A stretch of 40,830 nt of DNA from an uncultured Gammaproteobacteria bacterium (GCA_964490915.1 CAZBEJ010000002.1:1-40830); one strand, 5' to 3'. Shown: positions 9,446 through 26,360, counted from the first letter of the stretch. A program made the numbers and translations. The notes: generated from the sequence alone by a model not told the origin.

Positions 9446-9512
9446 CGAACCTCCGTAGGGTTACCCCGCTAGATTTACAGTCTAGTGCGATTGGCCGCTC
9501 TGCCACCTCTGG
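9430..9512 (-). tRNA. tRNA-Tyr (anticodon GUA), class II with long variable arm, no encoded CCA
   Basis: The reverse complement reads CCAGAGG-UG-GCAGAGCGGCCAAUCGC-A-CUAGA-CUGUAAA-UCUAG-CGGGGUAACCCUACG-GAGG-UUCGAAU-CCUC-CCUCUGG-A. It has a perfect 7-bp acceptor stem, 5-bp anticodon stem and 4-bp T stem. The D-loop AGCGGCCAA resembles bacterial tRNA-Tyr. The discriminator A is followed by CAC, not CCA. Confidence 0.92.
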
Positions 9513-10283: not shown

Positions 10284-10287
10284 TCCT

Positions 10288-10461
10288 ATGTGTTTTGTAA
10301 AGCCGATTCGGGTCAAAAAAGTTTTTGATAATTACGTCTTGTTGGAAAACGGAATCAAGGCGTATTACGAAAAAAAGGAGGGGAAATTAAAACGGAACGA
10401 TCTGGTTTTGGTATACGGAAATGTTGTTATAAATAAAATTGTTGATTATGCCCAAATCTGA
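10288..10461 (+). CDS. HypC/HupF-like hydrogenase maturation chaperone (short, 57 aa), unannotated small ORF
   Basis: Reads MCFVKPIRVKKVFDNYVLLENGIKAYYEKKEGKLKRNDLVLVYGNVVINKIVDYAQI. It has the HypC hallmark Met-Cys2 ... Pro6 (MCxxxP) and a C-terminal NDLVLVYGNVVI matching the GDYVLVHVGFAI block. It lies in the hydrogenase locus and overlaps the next gene by 14 nt. Confidence 0.6.
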   Translation: MCFVKPIRVKKVFDNYVLLENGIKAYYEKKEGKLKRNDLVLVYGNVVINKIVDYAQI

Positions 10462-11350: not shown

Positions 11351-11353
11351 TGT

Positions 11354-12100
11354 ATGGATTACAAAGGATTACTGCTGTGCGCGAGATATTCATCGGCGCC
11401 CAATTTCTACGGATATTGTGGACCTAATGAAAATGAAACGCTTGTCGGCAACCTGGCAGCAAAAGACCGGTATCGGGAGATCGCTTCCATACTTTCTGAG
11501 TTCGAAACATTGTATTTGTACCTCCGGTTGATTTCCTATGAAAACAGGGTTCCGGACCCGTTTGACCAGAAGGTTGTGGAAGCATACTGGATTGGAAACA
11601 AATTACTGAACAATGTTCAGAATGTGGATTATGGTGCGTTGCTGGAGGAACGGTTTGCAATCGAAAAAAAAATAGGGTTTAAAAAATATCTGCTGATGAG
11701 AAGGAAAATCCTCGGTAATAAACTGTATCCCCACCATTCGTTTCACGTATTCAATGTTTTCAAGCGTACAGGGCATGATCCGAGTTTTCACACGCTTGAG
11801 ACCATGAATGAATGCAGGGTAGGATGGGGAAAGATAAGAATGGAGATTGGAGGATGGAAAAGAGAGAATATCACTGTTGAAACACAACCATTAGTTATGG
11901 AAAAAGGCAAACTGAAATTGGGGAAACCGTTCATGAAAAATTTAAAAACAGACTACAGGGGGAAAAGTTTTCTCAAGGGTTTAAATCCGGGCGATTGGGT
12001 GAGTTTTCATTGGGGATTTGTTTGCGATAGACTAACGTTAGTTCAGGTACGCAATCTGCAATTTTATACCCAGAAGTCAATTGATTTCTACAATACATAA
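11354..12100 (+). CDS. Conserved hypothetical protein (resembles what I recall as DUF6390) with a C-terminal HypC-like domain
   Basis: 248-aa ORF. The N-terminus is CARYSSAPNFYGYCGPNEN. The C-terminal part has CRVGWGKIRMEI (compare HypC CLGIPGKIVEI) and GDWVSFHWGFVCDRL (compare HypC GDYVLVHVGFAI). Confidence 0.65.
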   Translation: MDYKGLLLCARYSSAPNFYGYCGPNENETLVGNLAAKDRYREIASILSEFETLYLYLRLISYENRVPDPFDQKVVEAYWIGNKLLNNVQNVDYGALLEERFAIEKKIGFKKYLLMRRKILGNKLYPHHSFHVFNVFKRTGHDPSFHTLETMNECRVGWGKIRMEIGGWKRENITVETQPLVMEKGKLKLGKPFMKNLKTDYRGKSFLKGLNPGDWVSFHWGFVCDRLTLVQVRNLQFYTQKSIDFYNT

Positions 12101-12108
12101 ATTAAATC

Positions 12109-12126
12109 ACTACAATTAATTGTAGT
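12109..12126. promoter_or_regulatory. Perfect 18-bp palindrome ACTACAATTAATTGTAGT between the DUF gene and the endopeptidase gene
   Basis: All 9 positions pair. It sits 8 nt after the stop at 12098-12100 and 14 nt before the ATG at 12141. Could be an operator site or a hairpin. Confidence 0.5.
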
Positions 12127-12140
12127 ACATGAAATAACGT

Positions 12141-12530
12141 ATGAGAAAAATCTATGTGTTTGGCAATCCGCTCATTCCACAAGATTCCTTTCCGTTTCAA
12201 TTCATTAATGAATTGAGTCGCGCTTTTCCAGATATAGATTTTCACATTACTGATCCGAATGAAAACTTTCCGCCAACGAGTGAAAAAAACCTGGTGATTC
12301 TGGATACGGTGAAAGGAATAAAAAAACCGATGCTATTTGATTTGGATGATTTCGAATCGAAAGGAGCCACGCCAATATCACCCCATGACTACGATCTGTT
12401 ATTTCATCTGCTGTTGCTTAGGAAGCTGAAAAAAATCAATACGGTCAAATTGATTGGTATACCTCAAAATAGTCGGACAGCGTTTACGTCTATTCAATCC
12501 ATGATCAGAAAGGCGCTGGCATCGTACTGA
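12141..12530 (+). CDS. Hydrogenase maturation endopeptidase (HycI/HoxW/HybD-like, divergent and short)
   Basis: 129-aa ORF. VFGNPLIPQDSFPF matches the GNxLxxDDGxG block. LVILDTV matches the xxDA metal-ligand block. SPHDYDL matches the His ligand block. It is convergent with the large subunit, which carries a cleavable tail. Confidence 0.6.
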   Translation: MRKIYVFGNPLIPQDSFPFQFINELSRAFPDIDFHITDPNENFPPTSEKNLVILDTVKGIKKPMLFDLDDFESKGATPISPHDYDLLFHLLLLRKLKKINTVKLIGIPQNSRTAFTSIQSMIRKALASY

Positions 12531-12538
12531 ATACTGTA

Positions 12539-13849
12539 TCATCGCCATTTCACCTTCAGAAAATGCGCCGCGCAGGACATACAGGGATCAAAAGCCCTGA
12601 TGAACTTTTCTATTTCATAGACGATCTGCTCCTTCGGCGTATCGACCGCAACCAATTTTTCGGTGAGTTCATAGATTCCTCTCTCCATTACAATCTGGTT
12701 CTGTCCGGTCGGTACCACAATGTCTCCTTTTTCAACAATGCCGTCAGCCTGCACCTGAAGTTTGTAGTACAGCGTGCCGCGGGGAGCTTCGATCAGGCCG
12801 ACGCTTTCGGTTCGGGTAAACATGGGTTTTTGCGGTGCCTCGTAGTCTATGGTTTTAAACGAATTTATGATATCGATTGACGAGTCAATCGCGTGAAGAA
12901 TTTCTATGGCCTGGGCAATAGTATTGAGGTAGAGATTATGAGAGGGGAACAGGTCGAGATATTTTTTTGCCGATTCCCTGGTTTTCGGATGAAGTTTTTT
13001 TTTATCGTTATTGATCCGGGCCAAAGCGCCCACCATGAGAAACTTGCCGTCGAATTTGAATCCCCGCGCCTGGGAGTAAGGAATGATGACCGCGTCCAAG
13101 TGGGTTCCATAGTCCTTTTCCTGGACGGTAACGCCGTCGCTGGTAATAAGGACTCCCTCGAGAAAGGAGTAGTCCTCTGAAGACAGTCCGCCGTATATCA
13201 CAGGCGTCCGCAGTGAAAAATCAGAACCGTCTTTGGCAAAAATTTCCAGAAGCTGCAAGATCTTCGGTCTGATTTCCATGAGGTTCGGCTTGAGATTCTT
13301 CAAGTCCTCGAGTCTGGGGAGTTTCAGAAAACCGCCGATAGTAGGCATGGGCGCATGGACCGATCTTCCGCCGACAATAACCGACAGTCGGTTGCCGACC
13401 TCTTTTACGCAAAACGTATCTTCAAGCATCTGGTGTTGAGTGGGATCTTTATCGTCAAAGTCCAGAATCGAGTTTTTGCCAAAAACGTCAGGTAAGGAAA
13501 AAATATATAAATGCAATGCATGGTCACGGATGATCAGACCGTAATATAACAGTTTACGCAATAACATAGTCTGTACAGATGGCTTTATGTTGCTTGCTTT
13601 TTCCACTGCCTCGATGCTTGCCAGAAGGTGCGCATTGGAACAGGTTCCGCAGATCCTGGCGACCAGTTGAGGGACTGCCGTTGCTGGTTTTCCCCTAATT
13701 GCCTGCGTGTAAAACCGTTTCCATTCGGATATGCTGAACTTTACGTTTTCGACATGTTTGTTGCGTACTCTCAGTTCAAGGGAAGCGGCTCCTTCGATTT
13801 TCGAAATTTCTTCCAGATTAATATCGAAGTCAATATCGATGTTATGCAT
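12539..13849 (-). CDS. [NiFe]-hydrogenase large (catalytic) subunit
   Basis: 436-aa ORF. The N-terminal Ni-Fe ligands are in RICGTCSNAH (C67, C70). The C-terminal ligands are in DPCMSCAAH (C423, C426, H429), followed by the 7-aa tail FLKVKWR. The size fits cytosolic group-3-type enzymes, but the subgroup was not determined. Confidence 0.9.
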   Translation of the reverse strand: MHNIDIDFDINLEEISKIEGAASLELRVRNKHVENVKFSISEWKRFYTQAIRGKPATAVPQLVARICGTCSNAHLLASIEAVEKASNIKPSVQTMLLRKLLYYGLIIRDHALHLYIFSLPDVFGKNSILDFDDKDPTQHQMLEDTFCVKEVGNRLSVIVGGRSVHAPMPTIGGFLKLPRLEDLKNLKPNLMEIRPKILQLLEIFAKDGSDFSLRTPVIYGGLSSEDYSFLEGVLITSDGVTVQEKDYGTHLDAVIIPYSQARGFKFDGKFLMVGALARINNDKKKLHPKTRESAKKYLDLFPSHNLYLNTIAQAIEILHAIDSSIDIINSFKTIDYEAPQKPMFTRTESVGLIEAPRGTLYYKLQVQADGIVEKGDIVVPTGQNQIVMERGIYELTEKLVAVDTPKEQIVYEIEKFIRAFDPCMSCAAHFLKVKWR

Positions 13850-13864
13850 GATAATTATTATCTA

Positions 13865-14344
13865 TTAACTCTTAGTTATTAAGAATTTATCCATAATATT
13901 GATAAACATTTCTTCGTTCATCGGACATCCCGGTACGACGGTATCCACCTTGACGACATCCGACAATTTCAGAACTTTGTCTTTATATTTGAACAGATCC
14001 AGGATCGGCTTGATTTCGTCCAGTTGGTCCCTGTTGAAAAAATTACGTTGGTTGGACGGGGATCCGACAATGGCACATGATCCGATTGCGACCAATACCT
14101 TTGTTTTCCCCCTGATCCGTATCAGTTTTTCCTCCTGTTTATCAGAACTTATGGATCCTTCTACGAATGCCACATCCATTTCCTGCAGTTCTTTTGTGTC
14201 ATCTTTCCGAAGCACCCGTGCATGCACAAACTCGATTTTCGCCAGCCATTCTTTATAATGAGTGTTCAATAATTCGGTAAACATGATAGTTGAATCTTCA
14301 CAGCAGGTAAAACTAAACCAGCCGACGCGTATTTTTTTATCCAT
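13865..14344 (-). CDS. [NiFe]-hydrogenase small subunit, minimal NuoB-fold with a single [4Fe-4S] site
   Basis: 159-aa ORF with exactly four Cys: C14 and C15 (FSFTCCEDS), C90 (GSCAIVG) and C140 (VPGCP). This is the Oxidored_q6/NuoB-like arrangement. It lies 15 nt upstream of the large-subunit gene on the same strand. Confidence 0.85.
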   Translation of the reverse strand: MDKKIRVGWFSFTCCEDSTIMFTELLNTHYKEWLAKIEFVHARVLRKDDTKELQEMDVAFVEGSISSDKQEEKLIRIRGKTKVLVAIGSCAIVGSPSNQRNFFNRDQLDEIKPILDLFKYKDKVLKLSDVVKVDTVVPGCPMNEEMFINIMDKFLITKS

Positions 14345-14437
14345 AAAATCATTCTAGCAAAATATTATTGGTTTCTGTTACTATTAAAGTTAAGATTAGG
14401 CAGAATCATTTATTTGTAATTCGTTATTTTTCCCAAT

Positions 14438-15484
14438 ATGACGCTGACCGAAATATCCTATAACAGCAGAAAATATGCGCCATTGGCAGTCCTTTTTTTT
14501 CTGGTAATCCTTATTTTCTTTTATGCATTTAAACTATTGTTTATTGCGCTCGAAGGCAACCAGACTCGACCGATTTATACGAATGCGGTTTTCGGAAAAA
14601 TCAAACAGCCGTTTGTAAAAGAGGCAACATCCAGCGCCGGCATGACATTTACGCTGGATACGGTTGAAGGTCAACCGGTCACCGCCTCGTCTGCAGCAAA
14701 AGTATATTTTCTTCCGCCTTCAGCAACGCATTTCGGCTACAACGAAAAAGTATATTTGATCGCAAAAGCATTTGGATTTAATACCGATCTGATTAAATAC
14801 CGCATGGTTGATATGGACGCGGTGTTTACCGATTCCAAGCAAAAACTTTCGGTCGATATCACCAACTTCAATTTTTCATACAACTATGATTTCGCGCTTG
14901 ACCCGGCCGTTTTCAACAGTATTCAAATTCCGTCAACCGACGTCATTCAAAACAAAGCAACGGACTTTCTCAAGACTGTCGGCCGCTATCCGGACGAGCT
15001 TGCGCAGGGAAAAATAAATATTTCCTATCTTATTCTGAATCCCACCGACCGTAGCGTAACCGTCACCGACAGGCCACAGGACGCCAATGCGGTCGAGGTC
15101 GATTTTTACCGGCCTGATATTGACGGTTTCCCCATGGTTTCACCCGGGTTTCCGTCCAGTCAAAATTACGTTATCATGGCAATATACAATACCAACATAA
15201 AGGTGTTAAGAGCGCAGATCCAGTTCTTTGAAAAATCAGATTCTCAGGTTGGTGTCTATCCGTTGAAAACAGGCGCTGTTGCATGGAAAGAACTGCAGGA
15301 AGGTAACGGATATGTCATATCGAATCCTCAAAACAATATGAATATTGATGTTAAGAATATGTTTACCGCATATCTTGACCCGAGTATTTACCAAAATTAT
15401 CTGGAACCGGTTTATGTATTTTTGGGAGGCAATAACTTCGCGGCATTTGTTCCTGCAGTCAGCGATTCATATCTCGCGCCGTGA
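14438..15484 (+). CDS. Hypothetical membrane-anchored, probably extracytoplasmic protein
   Basis: 348-aa ORF with one N-terminal TM helix (LAVLFFLVILIFFYAFKLLFIAL). No recognised motifs. Its 3' end overlaps the convergent dac-like gene by 26 nt. Confidence 0.6.
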   Translation: MTLTEISYNSRKYAPLAVLFFLVILIFFYAFKLLFIALEGNQTRPIYTNAVFGKIKQPFVKEATSSAGMTFTLDTVEGQPVTASSAAKVYFLPPSATHFGYNEKVYLIAKAFGFNTDLIKYRMVDMDAVFTDSKQKLSVDITNFNFSYNYDFALDPAVFNSIQIPSTDVIQNKATDFLKTVGRYPDELAQGKINISYLILNPTDRSVTVTDRPQDANAVEVDFYRPDIDGFPMVSPGFPSSQNYVIMAIYNTNIKVLRAQIQFFEKSDSQVGVYPLKTGAVAWKELQEGNGYVISNPQNNMNIDVKNMFTAYLDPSIYQNYLEPVYVFLGGNNFAAFVPAVSDSYLAP

Positions 15485-16379
15485 TATAGTTTATGTTTGA
15501 ATCAATCCAGTTGACCACTGCCTTTGTATCTGAGAACCGATCCTGGCTTTTCAGGATAACGATAATATACTGTCGGCCCTGATGTTTATAGAAACTAACC
15601 AGATTCTCGCCGGCGTTTTCCGTGTATCCTGTTTTCAATCCGCCGATTCCCTGGATTTCGCCAAGGAGCTGGTTGACGTTGGTTAACGTATGGAAGATCT
15701 TAAAGTCGACATCTGAGATCGTGATTTCTTTTATAGATACGATCCTGCTCAAATACTTGTTCTGTAGCAGGGCGCGAGCTGCCAGAGAGAGGTCAAAAGG
15801 TGTTACCAACTGTGACCTGTTGTCAAGACCGGCCGGATTAGTGAAATGCGAATCTTTCATATGGAGCTCTTGGGCTTTTTTATTCATCAATACGATGAAT
15901 TTATCGTAACCATACGCGTCGGCAAGAGCGTATGCCGCGTCGTTCCCCGAATAGATCAGCATTCCGTAAAATAGATTTTCAACAGTGATACGTTCACCGG
16001 GAACAAGGCCCATTACCTGACCTTCATTCATGACGCGGTGGATAGTAATAACCTGATCAGGTTTAAATATGTCATATGCCACCAGTGCGGTTATGATTTT
16101 GGCAGTCGAAGCAGGATAGAGGCGTTCGTGTTCATTTCGCATCATGATCGGCGTGAACGAAGGAAGATCGACAACATATACGCCTTCCGCCGTCACAGCA
16201 GGATAATATTGGCTAATCACGTGGGGAATGGGGTCAATTTTGATCGGGGTATTTTGCGGTGCTTTGACACTAAACATCTGTCGGTTATACGCGAAAATAT
16301 GGAAATAGTACGAATCGCCCGGATAAAAAAGAAAAAGTAAGGTAAAAAAACTGAATAATAGAATGAATTTCAGGCGCAT
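15459..16379 (-). CDS. D-alanyl-D-alanine carboxypeptidase (serine-type, PBP5/S11-like)
   Basis: 306-aa ORF with an N-terminal signal/anchor. Has SxxK (ASTAKIIT), SxN (YSGNDAA) and KTG (LKTGYT) motifs in the right order and spacing. Confidence 0.85.
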   Translation of the reverse strand: MRLKFILLFSFFTLLFLFYPGDSYYFHIFAYNRQMFSVKAPQNTPIKIDPIPHVISQYYPAVTAEGVYVVDLPSFTPIMMRNEHERLYPASTAKIITALVAYDIFKPDQVITIHRVMNEGQVMGLVPGERITVENLFYGMLIYSGNDAAYALADAYGYDKFIVLMNKKAQELHMKDSHFTNPAGLDNRSQLVTPFDLSLAARALLQNKYLSRIVSIKEITISDVDFKIFHTLTNVNQLLGEIQGIGGLKTGYTENAGENLVSFYKHQGRQYIIVILKSQDRFSDTKAVVNWIDSNINYITARDMNR

Positions 16380-16392
16380 ATAAAATAATGAA

Positions 16393-18231
16393 TTACGTAA
16401 AGTCTCCCACAGTCGGGTGAGTAATTGTTTTGAAATCTTCCGCCTTCATTTCGATTGATTTGGTGTGGCTGCCGGCATTAAAGTCGATGATTTGATTTTC
16501 GAATAACGCATGGTCGACATAGAGGGGAATAGAAAAAAGATTGCCGAAAGGCGGAACAGCGCCGATTTCAACATGGCTGACAGTTTTCACTTCTTCGGGT
16601 TTTGCCATTCTCAGATCCTTGACTTTATAGAGCATCTTGAATTTTTTCGTGTCGACTTTCCGGTCGGCAGGCACCACGATCATGACCGGTTTTTTGTCCG
16701 CATACATGATAAGAGCTTTTGCTCCGCGTTTTAAATCTGTGCCGCGGACTTTTGCAGCTTGCTCGGAAGTAAAAACTGGTTCATGTTCGTGGAGCGTATA
16801 TTCCTTTTTTTTGTTTTTTAGGAGTTTGACTATGGATTCGAACACATTCATATTGTATTTTTTTTCCGTAATTGAGATTCCCAGTTCCTGCAGCTGTTCT
16901 TCGCGTGCTTCGGACGGTGCATCCATGACCGCTGTTCTTCCTCCGGATGTGACAGGAAACGCGATAACTTCTCGCAAGTTTGATTCTCCGGTTAGACAGG
17001 TAATCAAACGGTCTATACCCGGCGCTATGCCGCCGTGCGGAGGCGCGCCATAGGAAAACGCCTCGATCATATGGCCGAACTCGGCGTCGATCCTCTGTTT
17101 TTCATACCCCATGATTTCGAAAACGCTTCTGAGCATTTCTGGCGTATGGGATCTGATGCTTCCTCCGCCGACTTCATAGCCGTTGCAGACCAGATCGTAT
17201 TGCGACGTAAGAATCTTTTCGATATTCGTTTTATTCAGCAGATCCTTCTCGTATTCGGGCAGCGGAGCGGAAAACGGGTTATGGGTAAAAGTCCATTTTC
17301 CTTCATATGTCTGTTCGAAAAACGGGAAATCAATAACCCAGGCAAATGCCTGGACATTGTCTTTTTTTTCCTGGTCGGTGCGCAGGTCGAACTTGTCTGC
17401 GCCGAACTTTTCCTTTGCTTCCTTATACGTAAAAACAGGAAATGGTTTTTTTTGCAGTTTCGCGCCGAGTTTCTCGAACGTAACTATTATCATTTCCTCG
17501 GTCAATTTCATGACATCCTTGCGGGTGACGAAGCTCATTTCGAGGTCGATCTGTGAAAACTCGCCGTATGCGCGGTCAGCGCGCGGGTCCTCATCCCTGA
17601 AACAGCGGGCGATCTGGAAATACCGTTCGAGTCCGGCAACCATGAGAAGTTGTTTATACTGTTGCGGCGACTGGGGGAGGGCGTAGAATTTTCCTTTTTG
17701 TAGTCGTGAAGGAACCAGGAAATCTCGTGCCCCTTCCGGTGTTGTTTTGGACAGAATAGGTGTTTCGATTTCGATAAACCGGTTTGAAAACAAAAATTCC
17801 CTAACAAGCTGGACGAATTTCGATTTGATGATAAGATTATTGGTCAGGCGCGGTCTTCGTAAATCAAGATACCGGTATTTCTGGCGGACTTCCTCATCAA
17901 CATTGTATCCGGTTCCTGACACAGGAAGGGGTAGGGCATTAGCTTTTCCCAAAACTTTCAGTTTTTTTGCAGCCACCTCAATACTGCCGGTCTTAAGTTT
18001 AGGATTTACCAAGTTTTCAGGCCGCTTATTGATTGTACCTTTAATCCATACGACATCTTCAGAAGATAATTCCTTAAAGCGTTCATCGCCAACAACCTGG
18101 ACAATGCCGCTTCGGTCACGAAGATCAATGAACACGATTTTCTTGTGGTCCCGTTTCGAATCTACCCAACCGTAAAGCTCCACTTCCTGACCGACTTTAT
18201 CAACTGTTTCGCTGATAAAAAGAGTTTTCAT
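16393..18231 (-). CDS. aspS: Aspartate--tRNA ligase, bacterial type without the GAD insertion, fused to a C-terminal YbaK/ProX-like aminoacyl-tRNA deacylase domain
   Basis: 612-aa ORF with an N-terminal OB anticodon-binding domain. Motif 2 is FRDEDPRADR..EFSQIDLEMSF, with HNPFSAP and GGGSIRSH, and motif 3 is PPHGGIAPGIDRL. Residues 457-612 carry the tRNA_edit/YbaK pattern (GAKALIMYADKKPVMIVVPADRKVDTKKFK ... GAVPPFG ... DFNAGSH). Confidence 0.9.
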   Translation of the reverse strand: MKTLFISETVDKVGQEVELYGWVDSKRDHKKIVFIDLRDRSGIVQVVGDERFKELSSEDVVWIKGTINKRPENLVNPKLKTGSIEVAAKKLKVLGKANALPLPVSGTGYNVDEEVRQKYRYLDLRRPRLTNNLIIKSKFVQLVREFLFSNRFIEIETPILSKTTPEGARDFLVPSRLQKGKFYALPQSPQQYKQLLMVAGLERYFQIARCFRDEDPRADRAYGEFSQIDLEMSFVTRKDVMKLTEEMIIVTFEKLGAKLQKKPFPVFTYKEAKEKFGADKFDLRTDQEKKDNVQAFAWVIDFPFFEQTYEGKWTFTHNPFSAPLPEYEKDLLNKTNIEKILTSQYDLVCNGYEVGGGSIRSHTPEMLRSVFEIMGYEKQRIDAEFGHMIEAFSYGAPPHGGIAPGIDRLITCLTGESNLREVIAFPVTSGGRTAVMDAPSEAREEQLQELGISITEKKYNMNVFESIVKLLKNKKKEYTLHEHEPVFTSEQAAKVRGTDLKRGAKALIMYADKKPVMIVVPADRKVDTKKFKMLYKVKDLRMAKPEEVKTVSHVEIGAVPPFGNLFSIPLYVDHALFENQIIDFNAGSHTKSIEMKAEDFKTITHPTVGDFT

Positions 18232-18286
18232 GTTTATGAACCATTATAGCAAGTTCGCGATAAAAAATCATAGCCACAAAATGTTG

Positions 18287-18314
18287 TTGAAATTGAACAA
18301 ATTTTTGGTATACT
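18287..18314 (+). promoter_or_regulatory. Putative promoter TTGAAA, 16-nt spacer, TATACT with TG-extended -10
   Basis: TTGAAA at 18287-18292 and tggTATACT at 18306-18314. It lies in the divergent region between aspS and the 18500 ORF. Confidence 0.45.
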
Positions 18315-18377
18315 TTTAACTAGATTGTCAAATATAGATAAACATAAATATGGTAAAACAATATCAACTTTTTATTT

Positions 18378-18482
18378 CCCACATCCGGGTCCTTATTACA
18401 AGGATCAGGAGTGGGGTGGTTGATACGGCGAAATAAGCAATTTAACGTTACAAACCACCCCGCCGGAAGGCGGGTTTTTTTT
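18378..18482 (+). ncRNA. Candidate structured leader (attenuator/riboswitch-like) or small RNA ending in an intrinsic terminator
   Basis: There are three overlapping helices. Hairpin 1 spans 18378-18415 (15 bp: CCCAC/GUGGG, UCC/GGA, GGUCCUU/AAGGAUC). A long-range helix pairs GGGGUGGUU (18413-18421) with AACCACCCC (18453-18461). The terminator spans 18459-18482. Confidence 0.45.
18459..18482 (+). terminator. Rho-independent terminator CCCGCC-GGAA-GGCGGG followed by U8
   Basis: A 6-bp stem with a GNRA-type loop is followed by eight T. It is oriented for the + strand only and lies 18 nt upstream of the 18500 start codon. Confidence 0.7.
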
Positions 18483-18499
18483 ATTTAAACAATATAAAT

Positions 18500-18853
18500 A
18501 TGGGAGAAAAACTAACACAAATGGAAAATAAAACAAATTTCTTAAATTTACTTGTAGGAATTCCTTTTTTATGCGATGCAAACTTGATTGGAGATTATAT
18601 AGAGCATTCTGTTAAGCAAGTATATAAAAATTTAATTTCCAACGGAAGCGAAAAAAAAGAGGTTTTAGAAATTTTAGATCGTATACCTGATGGTAAGGAA
18701 AGAGAAGTTGCTTCCTTTATCAATAATACAGTAGATGTTATGAATAGCGGTCGGAGAAAAAGACGAATGCTGGGGCACAAGGTAAACGCAAAACCTCATC
18801 TTCATATAGTACAAGCAATTAGAAGTATGAGAAATTTATATTCAGGAGAATAA
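18500..18853 (+). CDS. Hypothetical protein (orphan, no recognised family)
   Basis: 117-aa ORF in a locally AT-rich stretch with a basic patch, GRRKRRMLGHK. No motif recognised. Confidence 0.5.
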   Translation: MGEKLTQMENKTNFLNLLVGIPFLCDANLIGDYIEHSVKQVYKNLISNGSEKKEVLEILDRIPDGKEREVASFINNTVDVMNSGRRKRRMLGHKVNAKPHLHIVQAIRSMRNLYSGE

Positions 18854-18890
18854 TGTCAGTTTAGTTTTTAATATATTTAAAAGAGACAAT

Positions 18891-19133
18891 ATGCCGGTAT
18901 GGCAAAAAAAAACTGATTCCAACGGCAACTCAAGACTTGAGTTTGATGTACCGGTAAATAGCCGGCGAGCAAAACGGGAAACCGGAAATCTATTGCACAA
19001 TGTTTGTACAGCCTGTATATTCTTAAGTCAAGGCACCTATGGAATGCTTGATGCTGAAGGATATGTTGGCGAAAGAGAAAGAATTCCATACAGAACATGC
19101 CCAGGAATTGGTAGACCTGAAGCCAAATGCTAG
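18891..19133 (+). CDS. Hypothetical small Cys-containing protein (orphan)
   Basis: 80-aa ORF containing CTAC ... C ... C and a run of nine A at 18905-18913. No motif recognised, and coding status is uncertain. Confidence 0.35.
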   Translation: MPVWQKKTDSNGNSRLEFDVPVNSRRAKRETGNLLHNVCTACIFLSQGTYGMLDAEGYVGERERIPYRTCPGIGRPEAKC

Positions 19134-19146
19134 TAACTTATGTGTT

Positions 19147-20856
19147 TTAAATATTTCTTATTCTTCCTTGCAACTTTTCTTTATGATTCCAGTAGTTAAT
19201 TCCCAGCATGTAAATCAATTCTATGTTTTGCCCCCGTGATAATTTCGTAAATTGTTCAACAGAGTTAAATGACATGAATTCAACAGGCTGTGATTTTTCG
19301 TCTTTTACCAGTAACTTCATATGATTCTGTTCTTTTCCCAGTATTTTCGCATCCACGAGTTCTCCTTTGCTGTAAAACACGGGTTGGGGATTTCCGATAC
19401 CGAATGGTTGGAGTTTAAACAACGCTTTTGCAACTGAAATATTGATTTTCGATAGAGGTATTTTTATATCAGCTTCAATTATCCGTTCGAGATCTTTTTC
19501 AGAAATTAATATATCTGCCTTTTTTTGGGCATTTTCGATAAACCCGTCAAGATTGGTGTTTTCAATGGTGAATCCGGCAGCGCCTTTATGTCCGCCGACA
19601 TCAACAAGGTATTGTTTCAGGCTTCTCAAAAAATCAGTTATGTGGAATGAAGGAATGGAGCGCGCCGATCCCTTATAAAATCCGTCTGTTTTGGTCATGA
19701 CAATGGTAGGCCGGAAATATTCCTCGGTAATTCTGGATGCGATAAGTCCGATAATGCCTTCATGCCAGTGATCGGATTGCAGGATAATGAGTTTCGGTAT
19801 TTTTTTGAAATGATCTGTCTGTTTTTCAAGTTGTTTTTTTGCCTGCTCTACGGATTCGGTTACCATGTCCTGACGCTCCCTGTTCATTCCTCCGACTTTT
19901 TCCGCAAGCGCCTGCGCTTTTTTAAAATCATTGGTGCACAGAAGGCGCAATGCATCTATGGCATGTTCCAGTCTTCCCACGGCATTGATGCGGGGCGCAA
20001 TAATAAATCCTATTTCATATGGCGTGATTTTCCTGTTTTCTATACCGGCCTGTTTGAGAATGGTACGAAGCCCGGGTCTTTTGGTTTCGGAGAATGCGTG
20101 CAGGCCATAGGTTACTATGCTCCGGGACGGGCCGGTCAAGGGAACAAGATCCGCAACGGTTCCGACCGAGGCGAGCGATAGATAATCGGTTGAAAAATGA
20201 TCTTCGAGAATTTTTTTATTTTTACAGCCGGACTTAAAATGGTCAAAAACCATTTTTGAGAAGAAGTAGGAAACGCCTGAACCTGAAAGCTCGGGGATGT
20301 GAAAAATCGCAAAAGCGTCATCAGGCAGTTTTTCCGGTTTCAAATGGTGATCGGTGATGATGACCAGTATTCCCAATTTTTTCGCGTAAGTTACTTTCTC
20401 CCGGGCTGTTATGCCGTGATCAACACTGATAATCAGCGCCGGATCATACAGTTTCTTTACCGCATCGATCCCTTTTATGGAAAATCCGTATCCTTCAAGT
20501 TTACGGTGGGGAACGTAGGGCATGACTTTGAATCCGAGAAGATAGAGTGTTTCCCATAATATGCTGCCGCCGGTAATGCCGTCGGCGTCATAATCCGTGT
20601 ACACGACAATCATCAGATTTTCTTTTTTTATCTTTTCAAGAAGATCCAGGGTTTGTTTTGTTTCGGTTTTATATTGTTTGGTACTGATTTCGGAGATGGA
20701 AAGAGAAACCGGAGATTTCGGATGAAGGAACTCATTAATATTTTTAATATTCCGGTGTTTTAGGATAATGTCTACGACGTCCTGAGGATCAATCTTCTCA
20801 TCAAGTTTTATTTCATGTTTGTATGTGATCTTCATATGGATCCAAAATAAGGACAC
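19147..20856 (-). CDS. recJ: Single-stranded-DNA-specific exonuclease RecJ
   Basis: 569-aa ORF. DHH-family motifs are DYDADGITGG, SVDHG and ITDHH, with DHHA1 GGHKGAAG. The start is ambiguous: GTG at 20856 or ATG at 20835. Confidence 0.9.
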   Translation of the reverse strand: MSLFWIHMKITYKHEIKLDEKIDPQDVVDIILKHRNIKNINEFLHPKSPVSLSISEISTKQYKTETKQTLDLLEKIKKENLMIVVYTDYDADGITGGSILWETLYLLGFKVMPYVPHRKLEGYGFSIKGIDAVKKLYDPALIISVDHGITAREKVTYAKKLGILVIITDHHLKPEKLPDDAFAIFHIPELSGSGVSYFFSKMVFDHFKSGCKNKKILEDHFSTDYLSLASVGTVADLVPLTGPSRSIVTYGLHAFSETKRPGLRTILKQAGIENRKITPYEIGFIIAPRINAVGRLEHAIDALRLLCTNDFKKAQALAEKVGGMNRERQDMVTESVEQAKKQLEKQTDHFKKIPKLIILQSDHWHEGIIGLIASRITEEYFRPTIVMTKTDGFYKGSARSIPSFHITDFLRSLKQYLVDVGGHKGAAGFTIENTNLDGFIENAQKKADILISEKDLERIIEADIKIPLSKINISVAKALFKLQPFGIGNPQPVFYSKGELVDAKILGKEQNHMKLLVKDEKSQPVEFMSFNSVEQFTKLSRGQNIELIYMLGINYWNHKEKLQGRIRNI

Positions 20857-20861
20857 TCCTT

Positions 20862-21869
20862 TTAAGGGGCGGTTTTATCTTCCAATTGGTTTGTCTCTTT
20901 ATTCTCAGAAAGCATTTGGGTAGAGGAAAGTTTTTGTCCCAATGACTGGAATGACCTGGTTACTACGTCCATCTGGTTATATGCATGTGTTATATGTTTC
21001 TGCAGAGTGGATAACGAATCTTCGGATTTCTCATAGTCTTTTTTAATGGCTTTCAGGATGTCCAGAATCTGCTTTGCCTGCGTCTGGATTCTCTGGCCTT
21101 CGAATGACATGAGTATCGCCTTCATGTACGCGTAAAAACTCATGGGTGAAACAGGAAGTACGCGTCGGTCCCCGGCATAATCGAACAGCTCTGTGCTGTT
21201 TATGATTTCGTAATATACGGATTCCGAAGGTATATACATAAGCGCATAATCCATGGTATGTTCGTCAACCAGGATATATTTACGGCTTATATCATTGATA
21301 TGTTTTTTCACGTCATTGGCGAACTCTTTTTTTATTTTATTTTTTTCCTCAGGGTTTGTTTCCTTTGTCATTTTCCTGAAATTTTCCATGGGGAACTTCG
21401 AATCGATCGGAATAAGTCCTTGTGAAGTTTTAATCACCGCATCGACTTTTTCTCCATTTCTGAATCCGTGCTGGAGTTTGTACGAGTCTTTGGGAAAATA
21501 CTGCGCCAGGAGCTCTTTTAATACCTGTTCGCCGATGTTGCCGCGCAGTTTCGGCGATTGGAGAAATTCCTGAAGCTCGTTCATGGATCTGCCGATCTCG
21601 GAAAACTCGCCTATGCTTTTTTGTACGTCACCGATAACCCGTGCTGCATTATCCAATCGGGTGTTAAACATTTTCATGCTATCAGACAATTTGTTGTCAA
21701 TCTGCATTGTTGAAGATTTAAGCCATTCAACCAGTTCATCAGATAGTTTTGTTTTTTCTTCGAGTTTGTTGAGCCAAAGACGAAGTATAAAAAGAATGAT
21801 ACCGGCTGTAATAATCAATAGTACGATAAAGAGAATATTCACATGAAAATTATAGCATTGAAAATTCAA
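20862..21869 (-). CDS. rmuC: DNA recombination protein RmuC
   Basis: 335-aa ORF with an N-terminal TM helix and a coiled-coil. The RmuC core is VDAVIKTSQGLIPIDSKFP ... YALMYIPSESVYYE ... VLPVSPMSFYAYM. Confidence 0.8.
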   Translation of the reverse strand: MNFQCYNFHVNILFIVLLIITAGIILFILRLWLNKLEEKTKLSDELVEWLKSSTMQIDNKLSDSMKMFNTRLDNAARVIGDVQKSIGEFSEIGRSMNELQEFLQSPKLRGNIGEQVLKELLAQYFPKDSYKLQHGFRNGEKVDAVIKTSQGLIPIDSKFPMENFRKMTKETNPEEKNKIKKEFANDVKKHINDISRKYILVDEHTMDYALMYIPSESVYYEIINSTELFDYAGDRRVLPVSPMSFYAYMKAILMSFEGQRIQTQAKQILDILKAIKKDYEKSEDSLSTLQKHITHAYNQMDVVTRSFQSLGQKLSSTQMLSENKETNQLEDKTAP

Positions 21870-21902
21870 TGAAAATTGAGAAATGAAAATTATGGACAGG
21901 AG

Positions 21903-22841
21903 TTATATGAGTCCAGATCCTTTGAAGATTTTCGGTTTCAACCAGTCTTGGGCGCTTTGGGTTTGCTGGTCATCTGTTTTACTCTCCTTTTCAACCACTT
22001 CCACGGGTTTTGTCTGAATTTCAGGATGCAGTCCTCCGCGAACCTGCATCTGAGGCTGTGGTTTGACAGGTTTTTGTACCTGAGGTTGATTAAAGCCCGG
22101 TTTTTTTACCATTTTTTTCAAAGCTCCCATACGAAGTAATATAGCTATATGTTCGAATGTATCGGCATTCACCGAGTATGAAGTAAAGTTATTGGTTGCC
22201 GCAGCAATACCGGCATACAGGTTGGTAGCCATATCTTTATCAATCTCCAGCTTGAGCTCCTGCAAAATGTTCAGAATGAGTTCTGATACAGATGAAGATG
22301 TTTTATTAACCATATTTATGGTACCGAAGAATGCATTGGTGAGATGGCGGTCAATATTGACGATTTCCCGTCCCTGGAACATGGCCTGGTTTTCCGTATA
22401 GAGGGTTCCCAGGGAACTGAGCGCAGGCGAGTCAATAACGATTACGAAATCGAGCATACCGCCGGTATACGAGTATTTGACCTGGTTAGACTGCATTTTC
22501 GGATAGCCTTGGCGCGGCGTGATAATAAGGTTGAAGTTATTACCTTGGATATTATAATCAACTTTGTCGATAGCACCGTCCGTATAGGGGAATGAGATAA
22601 CCAGATTATCACCGCTGGTTACGAGCTCAGATTGGAATTTATCCGCGGCAACAAGATCGCTCTGAACAGACTGTGAATTTACCAAGGCAACTGTTTTACC
22701 TATCTTAACCAGACCAAGATACAAAGCTGTAGCTGAAGCTATAGCATCAACCGTAGGATTGCCGGGCAAAATAATAGCGCCAGAACTGGCTTTGGTGATA
22801 ATTTCGTGCAGTCGTAAGAGGTTGTTTTGTTGGGTATCCAT
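21903..22841 (-). CDS. DHH/DHHA1-fold NrnA-like protein with degenerate catalytic motifs and a Gln/Pro-rich tail
   Basis: 312-aa ORF colinear with NrnA-type phosphoesterases, but the motifs are altered. HxxPDGD becomes LPGNPTVD, DHH becomes DRH (NIDRHLTN), and GIxTDTGxF becomes GIAAATNNF. The C-terminus is PGFNQPQVQKPVKPQPQMQ. Confidence 0.6.
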   Translation of the reverse strand: MDTQQNNLLRLHEIITKASSGAIILPGNPTVDAIASATALYLGLVKIGKTVALVNSQSVQSDLVAADKFQSELVTSGDNLVISFPYTDGAIDKVDYNIQGNNFNLIITPRQGYPKMQSNQVKYSYTGGMLDFVIVIDSPALSSLGTLYTENQAMFQGREIVNIDRHLTNAFFGTINMVNKTSSSVSELILNILQELKLEIDKDMATNLYAGIAAATNNFTSYSVNADTFEHIAILLRMGALKKMVKKPGFNQPQVQKPVKPQPQMQVRGGLHPEIQTKPVEVVEKESKTDDQQTQSAQDWLKPKIFKGSGLI

Positions 22842-22845
22842 ATTA

Positions 22846-24306: not shown

Positions 24307-24324
24307 ATGATTTGTTTGGTATTG

Positions 24325-24398
24325 AGTATAGTGTATGGAGTATGGAGAATATGGGGAAGATATTGTACTAAATACTCTATACTCTATAACTCTATACT
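24325..24398. repeat. Long imperfect inverted repeat built from tandem heptamers, filling the nusA-infB spacer
   Basis: The outer arms AGTATAG (24325-24331) and CTATACT (24392-24398) pair perfectly. The inner arms are 24334-24351 (TATGGAGTATGGAGAATA) and 24371-24388 (AATACTCTATACTCTATA). They give 14 Watson-Crick pairs, 2 G:T pairs and 2 mismatches around a 19-nt loop. Each arm is itself a TATGGAG / TACTCTA tandem repeat. Confidence 0.7.
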
Positions 24399-26358: not shown

Positions 26359-26360
26359 AA

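What the first reader, a model, noticed from the sequence alone, without database searches (positions are those of the whole stretch)
16393..18231. AspRS lacking the GAD insertion and fused to a YbaK/ProX-like trans-editing domain
- **Core.** The catalytic core is clearly bacterial-type: QSPQ, FRDEDPRADR, HNPFSAP, GGGSIRSH and PPHGGIAPGIDRL.
- **Missing GAD.** Bacterial AspRS normally carries the GAD insertion of about 130 aa between DKPDLR and WV(V/I)DFP. Here there are only about 12 residues, FGADKFDLRTDQEKKDNVQAFAWVIDFPFF (nt about 17344-17382).
- **Extra domain.** After the normal C-terminus the ORF continues for 156 residues (aa 457-612, nt 16396-16863). This stretch has the YbaK/ProX deacylase pattern: a conserved Lys in GAKALIMY, VVPADRKVDTKKFK, GAVPPFG and DFNAGSH.

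Such domains are known as free-standing editors or as the ProRS INS domain, and I am not aware of one fused to AspRS. It suggests cis-editing of a mischarged tRNA, for example on a non-discriminating AspRS serving tRNA-Asp and tRNA-Asn, or a moonlighting deacylase.
Basis: partly seen in the sequence, partly recalled or inferred. Interest (0 to 1): 0.65.

Follow-up and report, generated by a model that had tools for sequence, protein, structure and literature searches.

The report
AspRS fused to tRNA-editing domain
This is a real, widely conserved aspartyl-tRNA synthetase of ultra-small (CPR/Microgenomates) bacteria that has lost the usual GAD insert and carries a YbaK/YeaK-type aminoacyl-tRNA deacylase at its C-terminus, which points to a proofreading step not described for this enzyme in the literature I could search.

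Summary
Window 16393-18231 (-) is one 612-aa ORF with three domains: an OB anticodon-binding domain, a bacterial-type class II AspRS core, and a tRNA_edit (YbaK/INS superfamily) domain. There is no GAD.

It is not an assembly artefact:
- At least 120 protein clusters from independent assemblies (59-100% identity) have the same architecture.
- The tail keeps the invariant Lys and GxxxP loop, and dN/dS is about 0.05.
- The 7-residue linker is the only unconserved stretch.

New findings here:
- The same deacylase clade sits on three different AspRS scaffolds: GAD-less bacterial type (this window), archaeal type, and GAD-containing bacterial type. The first two occupy the same recJ-aspS-dacA locus in related Microgenomates. 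The third is in DPANN archaea, where gatCAB lies 9 nt to about 3.3 kb downstream (an operon only in L081).
- In some CPR genomes the tail is a separate gene next to aspS, with start/stop overlap in three of four cases.
- GAD loss and fusion are therefore independent events.
- The tail belongs to an unassigned clade. Its nearest characterised enzyme is E. coli YeaK/ProXp-ST1 (31% identity). Its nearest structure is lpg1207 (3op6).

The most likely function is AspRS-coupled post-transfer editing. The substrate is unknown, and Asp-tRNAAsn surveillance is the most interesting candidate. I found no published description. I rate it a new variant of a known kind.

The parts
16393..18231 (-). Complete aspS::deacylase fusion gene (612 aa plus stop codon)
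   Evidence: ORF list. NCBIfam aspS_bact equivalogs score above cut-off: 614.7 against 443 and 550.5 against 373.85.
17950..18183 (-). N-terminal OB-fold anticodon-binding domain (aa 17-94). It contains H29 (nt 18145-18147), the position of H31 in P. aeruginosa ND-AspRS.
   Evidence: Pfam PF01336, E 1.6e-14. In the alignments, ND-AspRS structures 4wj3 and 4rmf read RDH while E. coli and T. thermophilus read RDL. H29 is present in 122 of 124 family members.
16948..17898 (-). Class II (IIb) catalytic core (aa 112-428) with QSPQ, motif 2 FRDEDPRADR, HNPF, GGGSIRSH and motif 3 GIDRL
   Evidence: Pfam PF00152, E 1.2e-110. Motif positions. PDB matches to bacterial AspRS at about 1e-122.
17341..17382 (-). 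Short loop (aa 284-297, RTDQEKKDNVQAFA) at the site where bacterial AspRS carries the GAD insertion of about 117-130 aa
   Evidence: HMMER alignment to 1efw jumps from chain residue 302 to 419 while the query moves from 292 to 295. No PF02938 hit. The loop sequence is conserved across 124 homologs.
16867..16947 (-). Bacterial-type C-terminal extension of AspRS (aa 429-455), ending in ...EEQLQELGISI
   Evidence: Aligns to the last residues (to 577 of 580) of T. thermophilus AspRS.
16846..16866 (-). Interdomain linker (aa 456-462, TEKKYNM). It is A-rich at the DNA level and unconserved.
   Evidence: Mean identity to the query is 8% here, against 57-72% in the domains. AlphaFold pLDDT is below 50 at 454-459. 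DNA read.
16396..16845 (-). YbaK/INS-superfamily aminoacyl-tRNA deacylase domain (aa 463-612). Catalytic-site markers: K505 (nt 16717-16719) and G557-A-V-P-P561 (nt 16549-16563). Further conserved positions: H483, R496 and the F584-N-A-G587 motif.
   Evidence: Pfam PF04073, E 7.3e-31. AlphaFold model of the tail alone has pLDDT 95 and pTM 0.89. All 37 significant Foldseek hits in the PDB are INS-superfamily folds or domains with the same fold inside larger proteins (SadB 9qzk, Maqu_0641 3mem), with TM up to 0.89. K505, G557, P560, P561, G563 and H483 are invariant in 124 fusion proteins. dN/dS is about 0.05 against the closest relative, with dS saturated.
15459..16379 (-). Downstream D-Ala-D-Ala carboxypeptidase (Peptidase_S11). 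It lies 13 nt after the fusion gene on the same strand and is a conserved syntenic partner of the locus.
   Evidence: Pfam PF00768, E 2.3e-42. It is found directly downstream of the tail in most (38 of 44) of the CPR AspRS-linked loci. No terminator-like site lies between the two genes.

Best explanation
The gene encodes a bifunctional enzyme.

**Body.** The body is a working bacterial-type aspartyl-tRNA synthetase. Its GAD insertion has been precisely deleted.

**Tail.** The C-terminal 150 residues form an active aminoacyl-tRNA deacylase of the YbaK/INS superfamily. The nearest characterised enzyme is E. coli YeaK/ProXp-ST1.

**Origin.** The tail arose by loss of the stop codon between aspS and an adjacent downstream deacylase gene whose start and stop overlapped.

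**Proposed mechanism.** Because the tail is tethered to AspRS by a flexible linker of about 7 residues, it samples the aminoacylated 3' end of tRNAs that AspRS binds or has just released (tRNAAsp, and tRNAAsn if the enzyme is non-discriminating). It hydrolyses wrongly paired products by post-transfer editing. The invariant Lys505 and the G557xxxP561 loop hold the aminoacyl-A76.

**Likely targets, in order.**
1. Asp-tRNAAsn that was not taken up by GatCAB.
2. A non-cognate amino acid (Ser or Thr type) placed on tRNAAsp/Asn.

**Shown versus inferred.** Shown: the architecture, its conservation, purifying selection, the origin by fusion, and the specific and recurrent association with AspRS. Inferred: hydrolytic activity, action on AspRS-bound tRNA, and the identity of the substrate.
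For: **Architecture and reality.**

**Active-site and fold conservation.**
- K505, G557, P560, P561, G563 and H483 are invariant in 124 fused proteins.
- The same motifs are kept in 80 genomic loci.
- The tail is as conserved as the OB domain (58% against 57% mean identity), while the linker is at 8%.
- dN/dS is about 0.05.
- The tail model has pLDDT 95 and matches only INS-superfamily-type folds.

**Specific link to AspRS.**
- Of the 80 best genomic relatives of the tail, 51 are fused to AspRS and 4 are separate genes immediately downstream of aspS.
- Three of those four separate genes overlap the aspS stop (ATGA or GTGA); the fourth follows a spacer of about 40 nt.
- The partner AspRS is of three different types: GAD-less bacterial, archaeal type (NCBIfam aspartate--tRNA(Asn) ligase, 508 bits against a cut-off of 353) and GAD-containing bacterial.
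- The first two types occupy the same recJ-aspS-S11 locus in related genomes, and the tails do not sort by core type.
- Only rare other fusions were seen.

**Link to the indirect Asn pathway.**
- DPANN fusions have gatC/gatA 9 nt to about 3.3 kb downstream.
- In L081 the order is aspS::tail-gatC-gatA-gatB-asnS.
- H29 matches the His of ND-AspRS structures.

**Precedent.** H. pylori GluRS2 deacylates excess Glu-tRNAGln, and GatCAB protects it (PMC3241645).
Against: - No biochemical data exist.
- No published AspRS misacylation problem is known to need editing (my own knowledge).
- The nearest characterised homolog (YeaK/ProXp-ST1) is a free-standing Ser/Thr-tRNA deacylase with broad tRNA specificity (PMC11295145).
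- Twenty-five of the 80 closest genomic relatives are free-standing and not next to aspS. They carry essentially the same active-site motifs, so fusion did not retool the pocket.
- Hydrolysing Asp-tRNAAsn in cis would compete with the obligatory GatCAB step.
- ND markers are ambiguous. His is present, but the second marker is Asn here and most often Lys in the family.
- asnS and gatCAB could not be checked in this genome.
- The full-length model gives no confident domain docking: pTM is 0.65 and the linker pLDDT is below 50.
Confidence: 0.55

Rival explanations
1. The tail is a general trans-editing factor, for example a ProXp-ST-like Ser/Thr-tRNA deacylase, or the genome's only INS-family editor covering an INS-less ProRS. 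It acts on many tRNAs. Fusion to AspRS only secures housekeeping-level co-expression and stability, and has nothing to do with AspRS products.
For: - The closest characterised enzyme is E. coli YeaK, at 31% identity and E 3e-21.
- Free-standing relatives at 45-53% identity share all the motifs.
- Their gene neighbourhoods have no common theme.
- A CPR relative has a family-I ProRS without an INS domain near the free-standing gene.
- Small genomes favour fusions.
Against: - The partner is AspRS in 55 of 80 loci, on three unrelated AspRS scaffolds and in two domains of life.
- The fusion is retained when the AspRS core type is swapped in the same locus.
- A partner-indifferent fusion should show many different partners. 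Only rare S11, RuvX and tandem forms were seen.
- The tail is far from ProXp-ala (21 bits) and YbaK (29 bits).
Confidence: 0.25
2. The tail is a non-hydrolytic or weakly hydrolytic holding site for the aminoacyl-CCA end. It retains Asp-tRNAAsn on the synthetase and hands it to GatCAB, taking over the trapping role proposed for the GAD domain.
For: - The GAD domain is proposed to trap Asp-tRNAAsn next to the active site (PMC3367201).
- GAD is missing here.
- The Lys and GxxxP loop are described as stabilising the aa-tRNA during hydrolysis (PMC11286415), so their invariance need not prove turnover.
- The fusions are linked to gatCAB in DPANN archaea.
Against: - DPANN fusions keep GAD and the tail together. 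CPR genomes with a separate tail gene already lack GAD. The tail is therefore not a replacement for GAD.
- Every characterised member of the superfamily is a hydrolase.
- Free-standing relatives with identical motifs exist.
Confidence: 0.08
3. The tail releases free asparagine. It hydrolyses Asn-tRNAAsn made by ND-AspRS plus GatCAB, so that the fusion plus GatCAB acts as a tRNA-dependent asparagine synthetase for organisms that lack AsnA/AsnB.
For: - The L081 cluster reads aspS::tail-gatCAB-asnS. An AsnRS sits beside the indirect pathway, the arrangement seen in organisms where the pathway is the only source of Asn (the background is mentioned in the abstract of PMC4206432).
Against: - This is purely circumstantial and rests on one locus.
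- It would be wasteful.
- No deacylase of a correctly charged tRNA is known in this superfamily.
- The window genome's asnS, asnA and asnB status is unknown.
Confidence: 0.04
4. The fusion is an artefact. A missed stop codon or a frameshift in the A-rich junction has joined two separate genes, aspS and a ybaK-like gene.
For: - The junction DNA contains A8 and A-rich runs.
- In four related genomes the two genes really are separate.
Against: - The reading frame is continuous in the window.
- It is also continuous in at least 120 protein clusters from independent assemblies and sequencing projects.
- It is continuous in 51 of 80 species-representative genomes.
- Linker length and composition vary while the frame is kept.
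Confidence: 0.01

Closest known systems
ProRS INS editing domain, and the ProXp-ala-ProRS fusions of protists (INS superfamily domain in cis with a class II synthetase)
   Same: The same deacylase fold, with the Lys and GxxxP active-site markers, is covalently attached to a class II aminoacyl-tRNA synthetase.
   Different: - The host synthetase is AspRS (class IIb), not ProRS.
- The domain is appended at the C-terminus after a 7-residue linker. It is not inserted between motifs 2 and 3, and it is not N-terminal.
- Sequence similarity to INS and to ProXp-ala is weak: 23.5 and 20.8 bits.
E. coli YeaK (ProXp-ST1), a free-standing Ser/Thr-tRNA deacylase
   Same: It is the nearest characterised enzyme, at 31% identity over 154 residues with E 3e-21. 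It shares the H...R-G-T, G-A-K-A-L, G-A-[VI]-P-P-F and F-N-A-G motifs.
   Different: - YeaK is a single-domain protein with broad tRNA specificity.
- The tail clade differs at invariant positions: T488/S489 against K/C, A492/A493 against V/S, G563 against S, and H589 against Leu.
- In an NJ tree rooted on YeaK, YeaK sits on a long branch from the whole tail clade.
lpg1207 of Legionella pneumophila (PDB 3op6), an uncharacterised YbaK-like protein
   Same: It is the best solved-structure match: 71 bits with the single sequence, 121 bits with the family profile, and TM 0.76-0.86. It shares the FNAGSH motif.
   Different: It is free-standing, of unknown function, and only 29-30% identical. It is not close to YeaK either, at 25 bits.
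Bacterial-type AspRS (E. coli 1c0a, T. thermophilus 1efw, P. aeruginosa ND-AspRS 4wj3)
   Same: OB domain, catalytic core, C-terminal extension and all class II motifs are shared. Equivalog HMMs score above cut-off.
   Different: - It lacks the GAD insertion, which the literature uses to define the bacterial type (PMC4206432).
- The HHPF motif reads HNPF.
- It carries the extra deacylase domain.
AspRS-GatC fusion (NCBIfam NF009460, 'bifunctional aspartyl-tRNA synthetase/aspartyl/glutamyl-tRNA amidotransferase subunit C')
   Same: It is another case of a bacterial-type AspRS extended at the C-terminus by a partner from aminoacyl-tRNA processing (the model is listed).
   Different: The appended module is GatC, not a deacylase. 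The window protein scores 419 bits against a cut-off of 1379 and is not a member.
H. pylori GluRS2 resampling of Glu-tRNAGln
   Same: It is a functional precedent. The misacylating synthetase of an indirect pathway itself deacylates excess misacylated intermediate, and GatCAB protects that intermediate (PMC3241645).
   Different: The activity resides in the synthetase itself, with no dedicated editing domain. It is a class I enzyme acting on a different tRNA.

Membership tests
Bacterial-type aspartate--tRNA ligase (TIGR00459 / NF001750) | Equivalog HMM score above the curated cut-off | tested here: met
   NF001750 scores 614.7 bits (cut-off 443). TIGR00459 scores 550.5 bits (cut-off 373.85). 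Each matches in two stretches that flank the missing GAD.
Bacterial-type aspartate--tRNA ligase (TIGR00459 / NF001750) | N-terminal OB anticodon-binding domain plus a class II core with motifs 1-3 and QSPQ | tested here: met
   PF01336 at 1.6e-14 and PF00152 at 1.2e-110. Motifs located.
Bacterial-type aspartate--tRNA ligase (TIGR00459 / NF001750) | GAD insertion domain between motifs 2 and 3, which PMC4206432 uses to separate the bacterial from the archaeal type | tested here: not met
   No PF02938 hit at E <= 1. The alignment to 1efw skips chain residues 303-418. The criterion is quoted.
Bacterial-type aspartate--tRNA ligase (TIGR00459 / NF001750) | Aspartylation of tRNAAsp | not testable with these tools
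   This needs an enzyme assay. The active-site motifs are intact, except that HHPF reads HNPF.
Non-discriminating AspRS (bacterial type) | His at the position of P. aeruginosa H31 (own knowledge: Bernard et al. 2006, J Bacteriol 188:269; checked against PDB sequences) | tested here: met
   The query reads RDH, like ND enzymes 4wj3 and 4rmf. E. coli and T. thermophilus read RDL. His is present in 122 of 124 family members.
Non-discriminating AspRS (bacterial type) | Gly at the position of P. aeruginosa G83 | tested here: not met
   The query has Asn73. Across the family the counts are K 45, A 20, N 18, S 13 and G 9 of 124.
Non-discriminating AspRS (bacterial type) | The genome lacks AsnRS and encodes GatCAB, and tRNAAsn has U1-A72 | not testable with these tools
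   The window holds no asnS, gat genes or tRNAAsn. No tRNAAsn or tRNAAsp was found in 57 related loci. Only DPANN relatives show gatCAB next to the fusion.
YbaK/INS superfamily (Pfam PF04073 tRNA_edit) | Pfam score above the gathering threshold | tested here: met
   107.3 bits against 25.5, E 7.3e-31, covering profile positions 1-121 of 123.
YbaK/INS superfamily (Pfam PF04073 tRNA_edit) | YbaK-like alpha/beta fold | tested here: met
   The AlphaFold model has pLDDT 95.2. Foldseek TM is 0.83-0.89 to 2cx5, 3op6, 1dbu, 2dxa, 1wdv and 1vki. All 37 hits with E <= 1e-3 have this fold.
YbaK/INS superfamily (Pfam PF04073 tRNA_edit) | Strictly conserved Lys and GXXXP loop (PMC11286415) | tested here: met
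   K505 and G557-A-V-P-P561 are both invariant in 124 fusion proteins. The feature is quoted.
YbaK/INS superfamily (Pfam PF04073 tRNA_edit) | Aminoacyl-tRNA deacylase activity | not testable with these tools
   This needs deacylation assays.
YbaK proper (Cys-tRNAPro deacylase, TIGR00011) | Equivalog score above cut-off | tested here: not met
   63.3 bits against a cut-off of 153.25. Only 26-29 bits to the YbaK structures.
ProXp-ST1 (YeaK) | YeaK is the closest paralog among the E. coli INS-family proteins | tested here: met
   YeaK scores 72 bits with E 3e-21. E. coli YbaK (2dxa) scores 29 bits and ProRS INS 23.5 bits.
ProXp-ST1 (YeaK) | Free-standing single-domain protein | tested here: not met
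   It is fused to AspRS.
ProXp-ST1 (YeaK) | Membership of the ProXp-ST1 cluster in the published similarity network (Kuzmishin Nagy et al. 2020), and Ser/Thr-tRNA specificity | not testable with these tools
   The reference paper and its cluster lists are not held. Identity of 31% and several differing invariant positions suggest a separate clade. It could be one of the uncharacterised ProXp-7, -8 or -9 clusters.

The most novel reading that the evidence does not exclude
The tail is a dedicated proofreader of the indirect asparagine pathway. It hydrolyses Asp-tRNAAsn, or other mis-aspartylated tRNA, that escapes GatCAB. This would be the first editing activity associated with any AspRS, and the first hydrolytic quality control by a dedicated editing domain for a transamidation intermediate. 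It would have been acquired or retained on three AspRS scaffolds in CPR bacteria and DPANN archaea.
Probability: 0.25. Interest if true: 0.85.

Novelty: new variant of a known kind. Interest (0 to 1): 0.68.

Why it matters
AspRS is treated as a synthetase that needs no editing. The indirect Asn pathway is thought to be protected only by transamidosome channelling and EF-Tu rejection.

A conserved, selected deacylase domain is physically coupled to AspRS in two huge and poorly studied radiations (CPR and DPANN), whichever AspRS type is present. This implies a fidelity problem, or a regulatory hydrolysis step, that model organisms do not reveal.

The finding has three further consequences:
- It gives a natural Rosetta-stone link for assigning function to an uncharacterised clade of the INS superfamily.
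- It shows that "bacterial-type AspRS = has GAD" is not a safe classification rule.
- It documents replacement of a synthetase core within one locus while the appended domain stays.

All of this can be tested directly with recombinant protein.

Tried and rejected
**Attempts that gave nothing**
- Exact look-up of the window protein in the contig index found nothing. Context was taken instead from the 84%-identical relative P0002/L001.
- The 19-sequence tail alignment A1 was too diverse for the genome scan. The scan was redone with six closer tails.
- I tried to settle the discriminating versus non-discriminating question. The sequence markers split: His yes, Gly no. No tRNAAsn or tRNAAsp was found in 57 related loci for checking U1-A72. 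The window has no asnS or gat genes. No tool allowed a whole-genome census of the Microgenomates assemblies.
- The promoter and terminator scan around the gene gave no more sites than shuffled sequence.
- Liu et al. 2015 (PMC4434731) and Vargas-Rodriguez 2013 (PMC3656294) are not held. A search for the H31/G83 paper found nothing, so that point rests on my own knowledge plus the PDB alignments.

**Leads followed and dropped**
- Gene neighbourhoods of free-standing homologs showed no recurring theme: HhH-GPD twice, a glycosyltransferase, VTT, TsaD/Kae1, SelA and HAD.
- I considered D-Asp-tRNA editing, because an S11 D,D-carboxypeptidase lies downstream and a DAO-family gene lies upstream of one free-standing homolog. 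The DAO-like protein is a generic sarcosine/amino-oxidase relative, and S11 adjacency is plain synteny. This remains only a remote possibility.

**Ideas rejected**
- "The tail replaces GAD": GAD and tail coexist in DPANN archaea, and GAD-less AspRS with an unfused tail gene exists in CPR bacteria.
- An internal start at M461: that position is not conserved.
- An assembly artefact.
Full report
**1. The observation**

Window 16393-18231 (minus strand) is one uninterrupted 612-aa ORF.

Pfam finds three domains:
- tRNA_anti-codon, aa 17-94, 1.6e-14
- tRNA-synt_2, aa 112-428, 1.2e-110
- tRNA_edit PF04073, aa 483-601, 7.3e-31

There is no GAD hit even at E <= 1. NCBIfam's bacterial aspS equivalogs score above their cut-offs, but in two stretches that flank the missing insertion. 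In the alignment to T. thermophilus AspRS, query residues 292->295 lie opposite chain residues 302->419.

**2. Not an artefact**

- All of the best 120 homologous clusters are 606-652 aa with the same three Pfam domains. They share 59-100% identity and come from NCBI, JGI, ENA and Logan assemblies. Where a source gives an organism, it is Roizmanbacteria, Gottesmanbacteria, Microgenomates or Patescibacteria.
- In an alignment of 124 fusion proteins, K505, G557, P560, P561, G563 and H483 are invariant, and F584-N-A-G587 is nearly so.
- The tail is as conserved as the OB domain (58% against 57% mean identity to the query). The 7-residue linker is at 8%.
- Against the closest relative (L001, 84% protein identity) the tail has dN 0.13 and dN/dS of about 0.05. 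dS is saturated, so the ratio is approximate.
- AlphaFold gives pLDDT 95 and pTM 0.89 for the tail alone. All 37 significant PDB matches have the YbaK/ProX/INS-type fold, with TM up to 0.89.
- The full-length model has well-folded domains, a low-confidence linker (454-459) and pTM 0.65. No rigid docking is predicted. Its PDB matches are ordinary AspRS structures, none of which has an appended editing domain.

**3. What the tail is**

Scores against solved structures:

| Target | Bits |
|---|---|
| 3op6 (lpg1207, Legionella, uncharacterised) | 71 |
| ProXp-x (2cx5) | 36 |
| E. coli YbaK (2dxa) | 29 |
| 1wdv | 28.5 |
| ProRS INS | 23.5 |
| ProXp-ala (1vki) | 21 |

- The family profile raises 3op6 to 121 bits.
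- E. coli YeaK (ProXp-ST1, annotated "mischarged aminoacyl-tRNA deacylase") aligns at 31% identity with E 3e-21.
- YeaK and 3op6 hit each other at only 25 bits. The tail clade is therefore a separate branch lying between them.
- The YbaK equivalog is failed, at 63 bits against a cut-off of 153.

The tail is thus an INS-superfamily deacylase domain of an unassigned clade. Its nearest characterised relative hydrolyses Ser- and Thr-tRNAs with broad tRNA specificity (PMC11295145).

**4. Distribution and evolution (new here)**

An exhaustive search of 1.8 billion representative proteins with the tail found 3660 relatives. Most are free-standing proteins of 150-165 aa at 40-53% identity, from Patescibacteria, WWE3 and others.

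The multi-domain hits are:
- AspRS without GAD (P0235)
- AspRS of archaeal type (P0121 and P0250; NCBIfam "aspartate--tRNA(Asn) ligase", 508 and 457 bits against a cut-off of 353)
- AspRS with GAD (P0146, 744 aa)
- rare oddities: the tail fused to Peptidase_S11 or to RuvX, and three tandem copies

A scan of one genome per GTDB species returned 164 relatives. I classified the best 80 by tblastn:

| State | Loci | Where |
|---|---|---|
| Fused to GAD-less bacterial-type AspRS | 26 | CPR |
| Fused to archaeal-type AspRS | 14 | CPR |
| Fused to GAD-containing bacterial-type AspRS | 11 | 5 records titled Woesearchaeota/Nanoarchaeota/Nanoarchaeia; 6 titled "uncultured Methanosarcinales" (probably placeholders) |
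| Separate gene immediately downstream of GAD-less aspS | 4 | CPR |
| Free-standing, not next to aspS | 25 | CPR and archaea |

- The split cases are real genes. One has a spacer of about 40 nt, one a GTGA overlap, and two near-identical loci an ATGA overlap.
- In Microgenomates the locus recJ - aspS::tail - Peptidase_S11 - a 348-aa hypothetical (- NiFe hydrogenase) is kept whichever core type is present.
- L010 illustrates this. Its tail is 64% identical to the window's and its RecJ 64%, yet its core is archaeal type and only 33% identical to the window's.
- In an NJ tree of tails, the two CPR core types are interleaved and the DPANN fusions form their own clade. The tree has no support values.

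I conclude three things:
1. The fusion arose from an adjacent gene pair.
2. The AspRS core has been exchanged within the locus while the tail stayed.
3. GAD loss and fusion are independent, because GAD and tail coexist in DPANN archaea and GAD-less AspRS with an unfused tail gene exists in CPR bacteria.

**5. Link to the indirect asparagine pathway**

- DPANN fusions have gatC and gatA 9 nt to about 3.3 kb downstream (L005, L052, L072, L081, L085).
- In L081 the order is aspS(GAD)::tail - gatC - gatA - gatB - asnS, all on one strand.
- The archaeal-type partners are named ND enzymes by NCBIfam.
- For the window protein the markers split. H29 matches the His of ND enzymes (4wj3, 4rmf), where E. 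coli and T. thermophilus have Leu, and it is present in 122 of 124 relatives. The second marker (P. aeruginosa G83) is Asn here and is variable across the family, with Lys the most common.
- The window has no asnS or gat genes and no informative tRNA.

Non-discrimination is therefore plausible but unproven for this genome.

**6. Mechanism**

Shown:
- an intact AspRS with a selected, well-folded INS-type domain carrying the full set of conserved active-site markers
- a specific and recurrent partnership with AspRS across three scaffolds and two domains of life

Inferred:
- The tail hydrolyses an aminoacyl-tRNA that AspRS binds or releases.

I favour AspRS-coupled post-transfer editing (confidence 0.55). 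Candidate substrates, in order:
1. Asp-tRNAAsn not captured by GatCAB. The precedent is H. pylori GluRS2, which deacylates excess Glu-tRNAGln while GatCAB protects it (PMC3241645). In bacterial ND-AspRS the GAD domain has been proposed to trap Asp-tRNAAsn (PMC3367201).
2. A Ser/Thr-type non-cognate amino acid on tRNAAsp/Asn, by analogy with YeaK.

Against:
- Fused and free-standing relatives have essentially the same pocket motifs. Only T498 and A558 differ.
- A quarter to a third of close relatives are unlinked to aspS.
- Cis hydrolysis of an obligatory intermediate would need kinetic gating.

The main rival (0.25) is a general trans-editing factor that is merely co-expressed with AspRS. An assembly artefact is excluded.

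**7. Comparison with what is known, and novelty**

Editing domains of this superfamily are known in cis only in ProRS: the INS insertion and the N-terminal ProXp-ala of protists. A 2024 review states that other members are single-domain proteins. Papers that classify AspRS use the GAD domain as the mark of the bacterial type (PMC4206432).

Full-text searches found no description of an AspRS-INS fusion. The searches combined AspRS or aspartyl-tRNA synthetase with YbaK, trans-editing, editing domain, CPR, Patescibacteria or DPANN. The proteins are in public databases, annotated simply as aspartate--tRNA ligase.

I rate this a new variant of a known kind: a known editing fold on a synthetase not known to edit. 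Interest is 0.68.

**8. Genomic context**

The window is a typical Microgenomates/Roizmanbacteria-like chromosome segment. It carries:
- recJ, rmuC, infB, nusA and the L25 gene
- dnaK-grpE-hrcA, secDF and a CCA-adding enzyme
- ABC exporters and a NiFe hydrogenase
- one tRNA-Tyr

Its closest public relative is contig CAZFQZ010000002.1. DNA identity to it is 74-87%, in a mosaic pattern.

Noticed in passing
L010, L011, L013, L018, L021, L022, L024, L039, L048, L050, L064 and L068, compared with the window and L006-L009, L012: In related Microgenomates the same recJ-aspS::tail-Peptidase_S11 locus carries either a GAD-less bacterial-type or an archaeal-type AspRS core (30-33% identical to each other), while the tails stay 47-64% identical to the window's. 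The synthetase core seems to have been replaced within the locus, upstream of a resident editing domain.
   Followed up: partly
L081:4240-11025 (+): A DPANN-like MAG has the cluster aspS(GAD)::deacylase, gatC, gatA, gatB and asnS on one strand. gatC starts 9 nt after the fusion's stop codon. This looks like a complete asparagine module holding both the direct and the indirect routes.
   Followed up: partly
P0133 (486 aa), P0190 (505 aa), P0137 (298 aa), P0122 (448 aa): The same deacylase clade also occurs fused N-terminally to the downstream D-Ala-D-Ala carboxypeptidase (Peptidase_S11), fused to RuvX, and as three tandem tRNA_edit domains. I did not check whether the S11 fusions are real or are gene-calling read-throughs.
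   Followed up: no
Record titles of L006, L014-L016, L019, L023, L026, L029, L032, L035, L037, L041-L047, L049, L051, L055, L059, L081, L085 and others: Many 'MAG TPA_asm' records are titled uncultured Gammaproteobacteria, Pseudomonadales, Pirellulaceae or Methanosarcinales, although their genes and synteny are plainly CPR- or DPANN-like. L006, the window's closest relative, is one of them. The titles look like placeholders or mislabels.
   Followed up: no
window 12539-14344 (-): NiFe hydrogenase large (436 aa) and small (159 aa) subunit genes. They are syntenic with the aspS locus in several Roizmanbacteria-like relatives.
   Followed up: no
window 17275-17286 (aa 316-319): The bacterial AspRS histidine-loop motif HHPF reads HNPF here and in 121 of 124 fusion proteins. 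The consequence for aspartate recognition is unknown.
   Followed up: no
L049:4539-6465: A free-standing homolog of the tail lies directly downstream of SelA (L-seryl-tRNA(Sec) selenium transferase), another enzyme that works on a misacylated tRNA intermediate. This is a single case.
   Followed up: no
L003:1475-6471: In a Patescibacteria MAG the free-standing homolog overlaps by 4 nt the end of a sarcosine/amino-oxidase-like FAD enzyme gene. An INS-less family-I ProRS and a small tRNA-binding protein lie about 3 kb away.
   Followed up: partly
window 10287-28223 compared with L001: DNA identity to the closest relative is mosaic. It is 87% across recJ-rmuC-DHH-infB (19160-24270) but 74-77% on both sides, including aspS. 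This may reflect recombination or uneven constraint.
   Followed up: no
window 34937-35449 (+): A 170-aa protein made almost entirely of repeated zinc-ribbon motifs, with weak hits to many Zn-ribbon families. It lies between secF and a metallo-beta-lactamase-fold gene.
   Followed up: no
window 6079-7808 (+): Two consecutive overlapping ORFs (366 and 210 aa) both hit HlyD-type membrane-fusion domains, downstream of a MarR regulator and next to two ABC exporter genes. This could be a split or a duplicated gene.
   Followed up: no
window 9078-9506 (-): A 142-aa ORF overlaps the tRNA-Tyr gene (9429-9512, -) and is almost certainly spurious.
   Followed up: no
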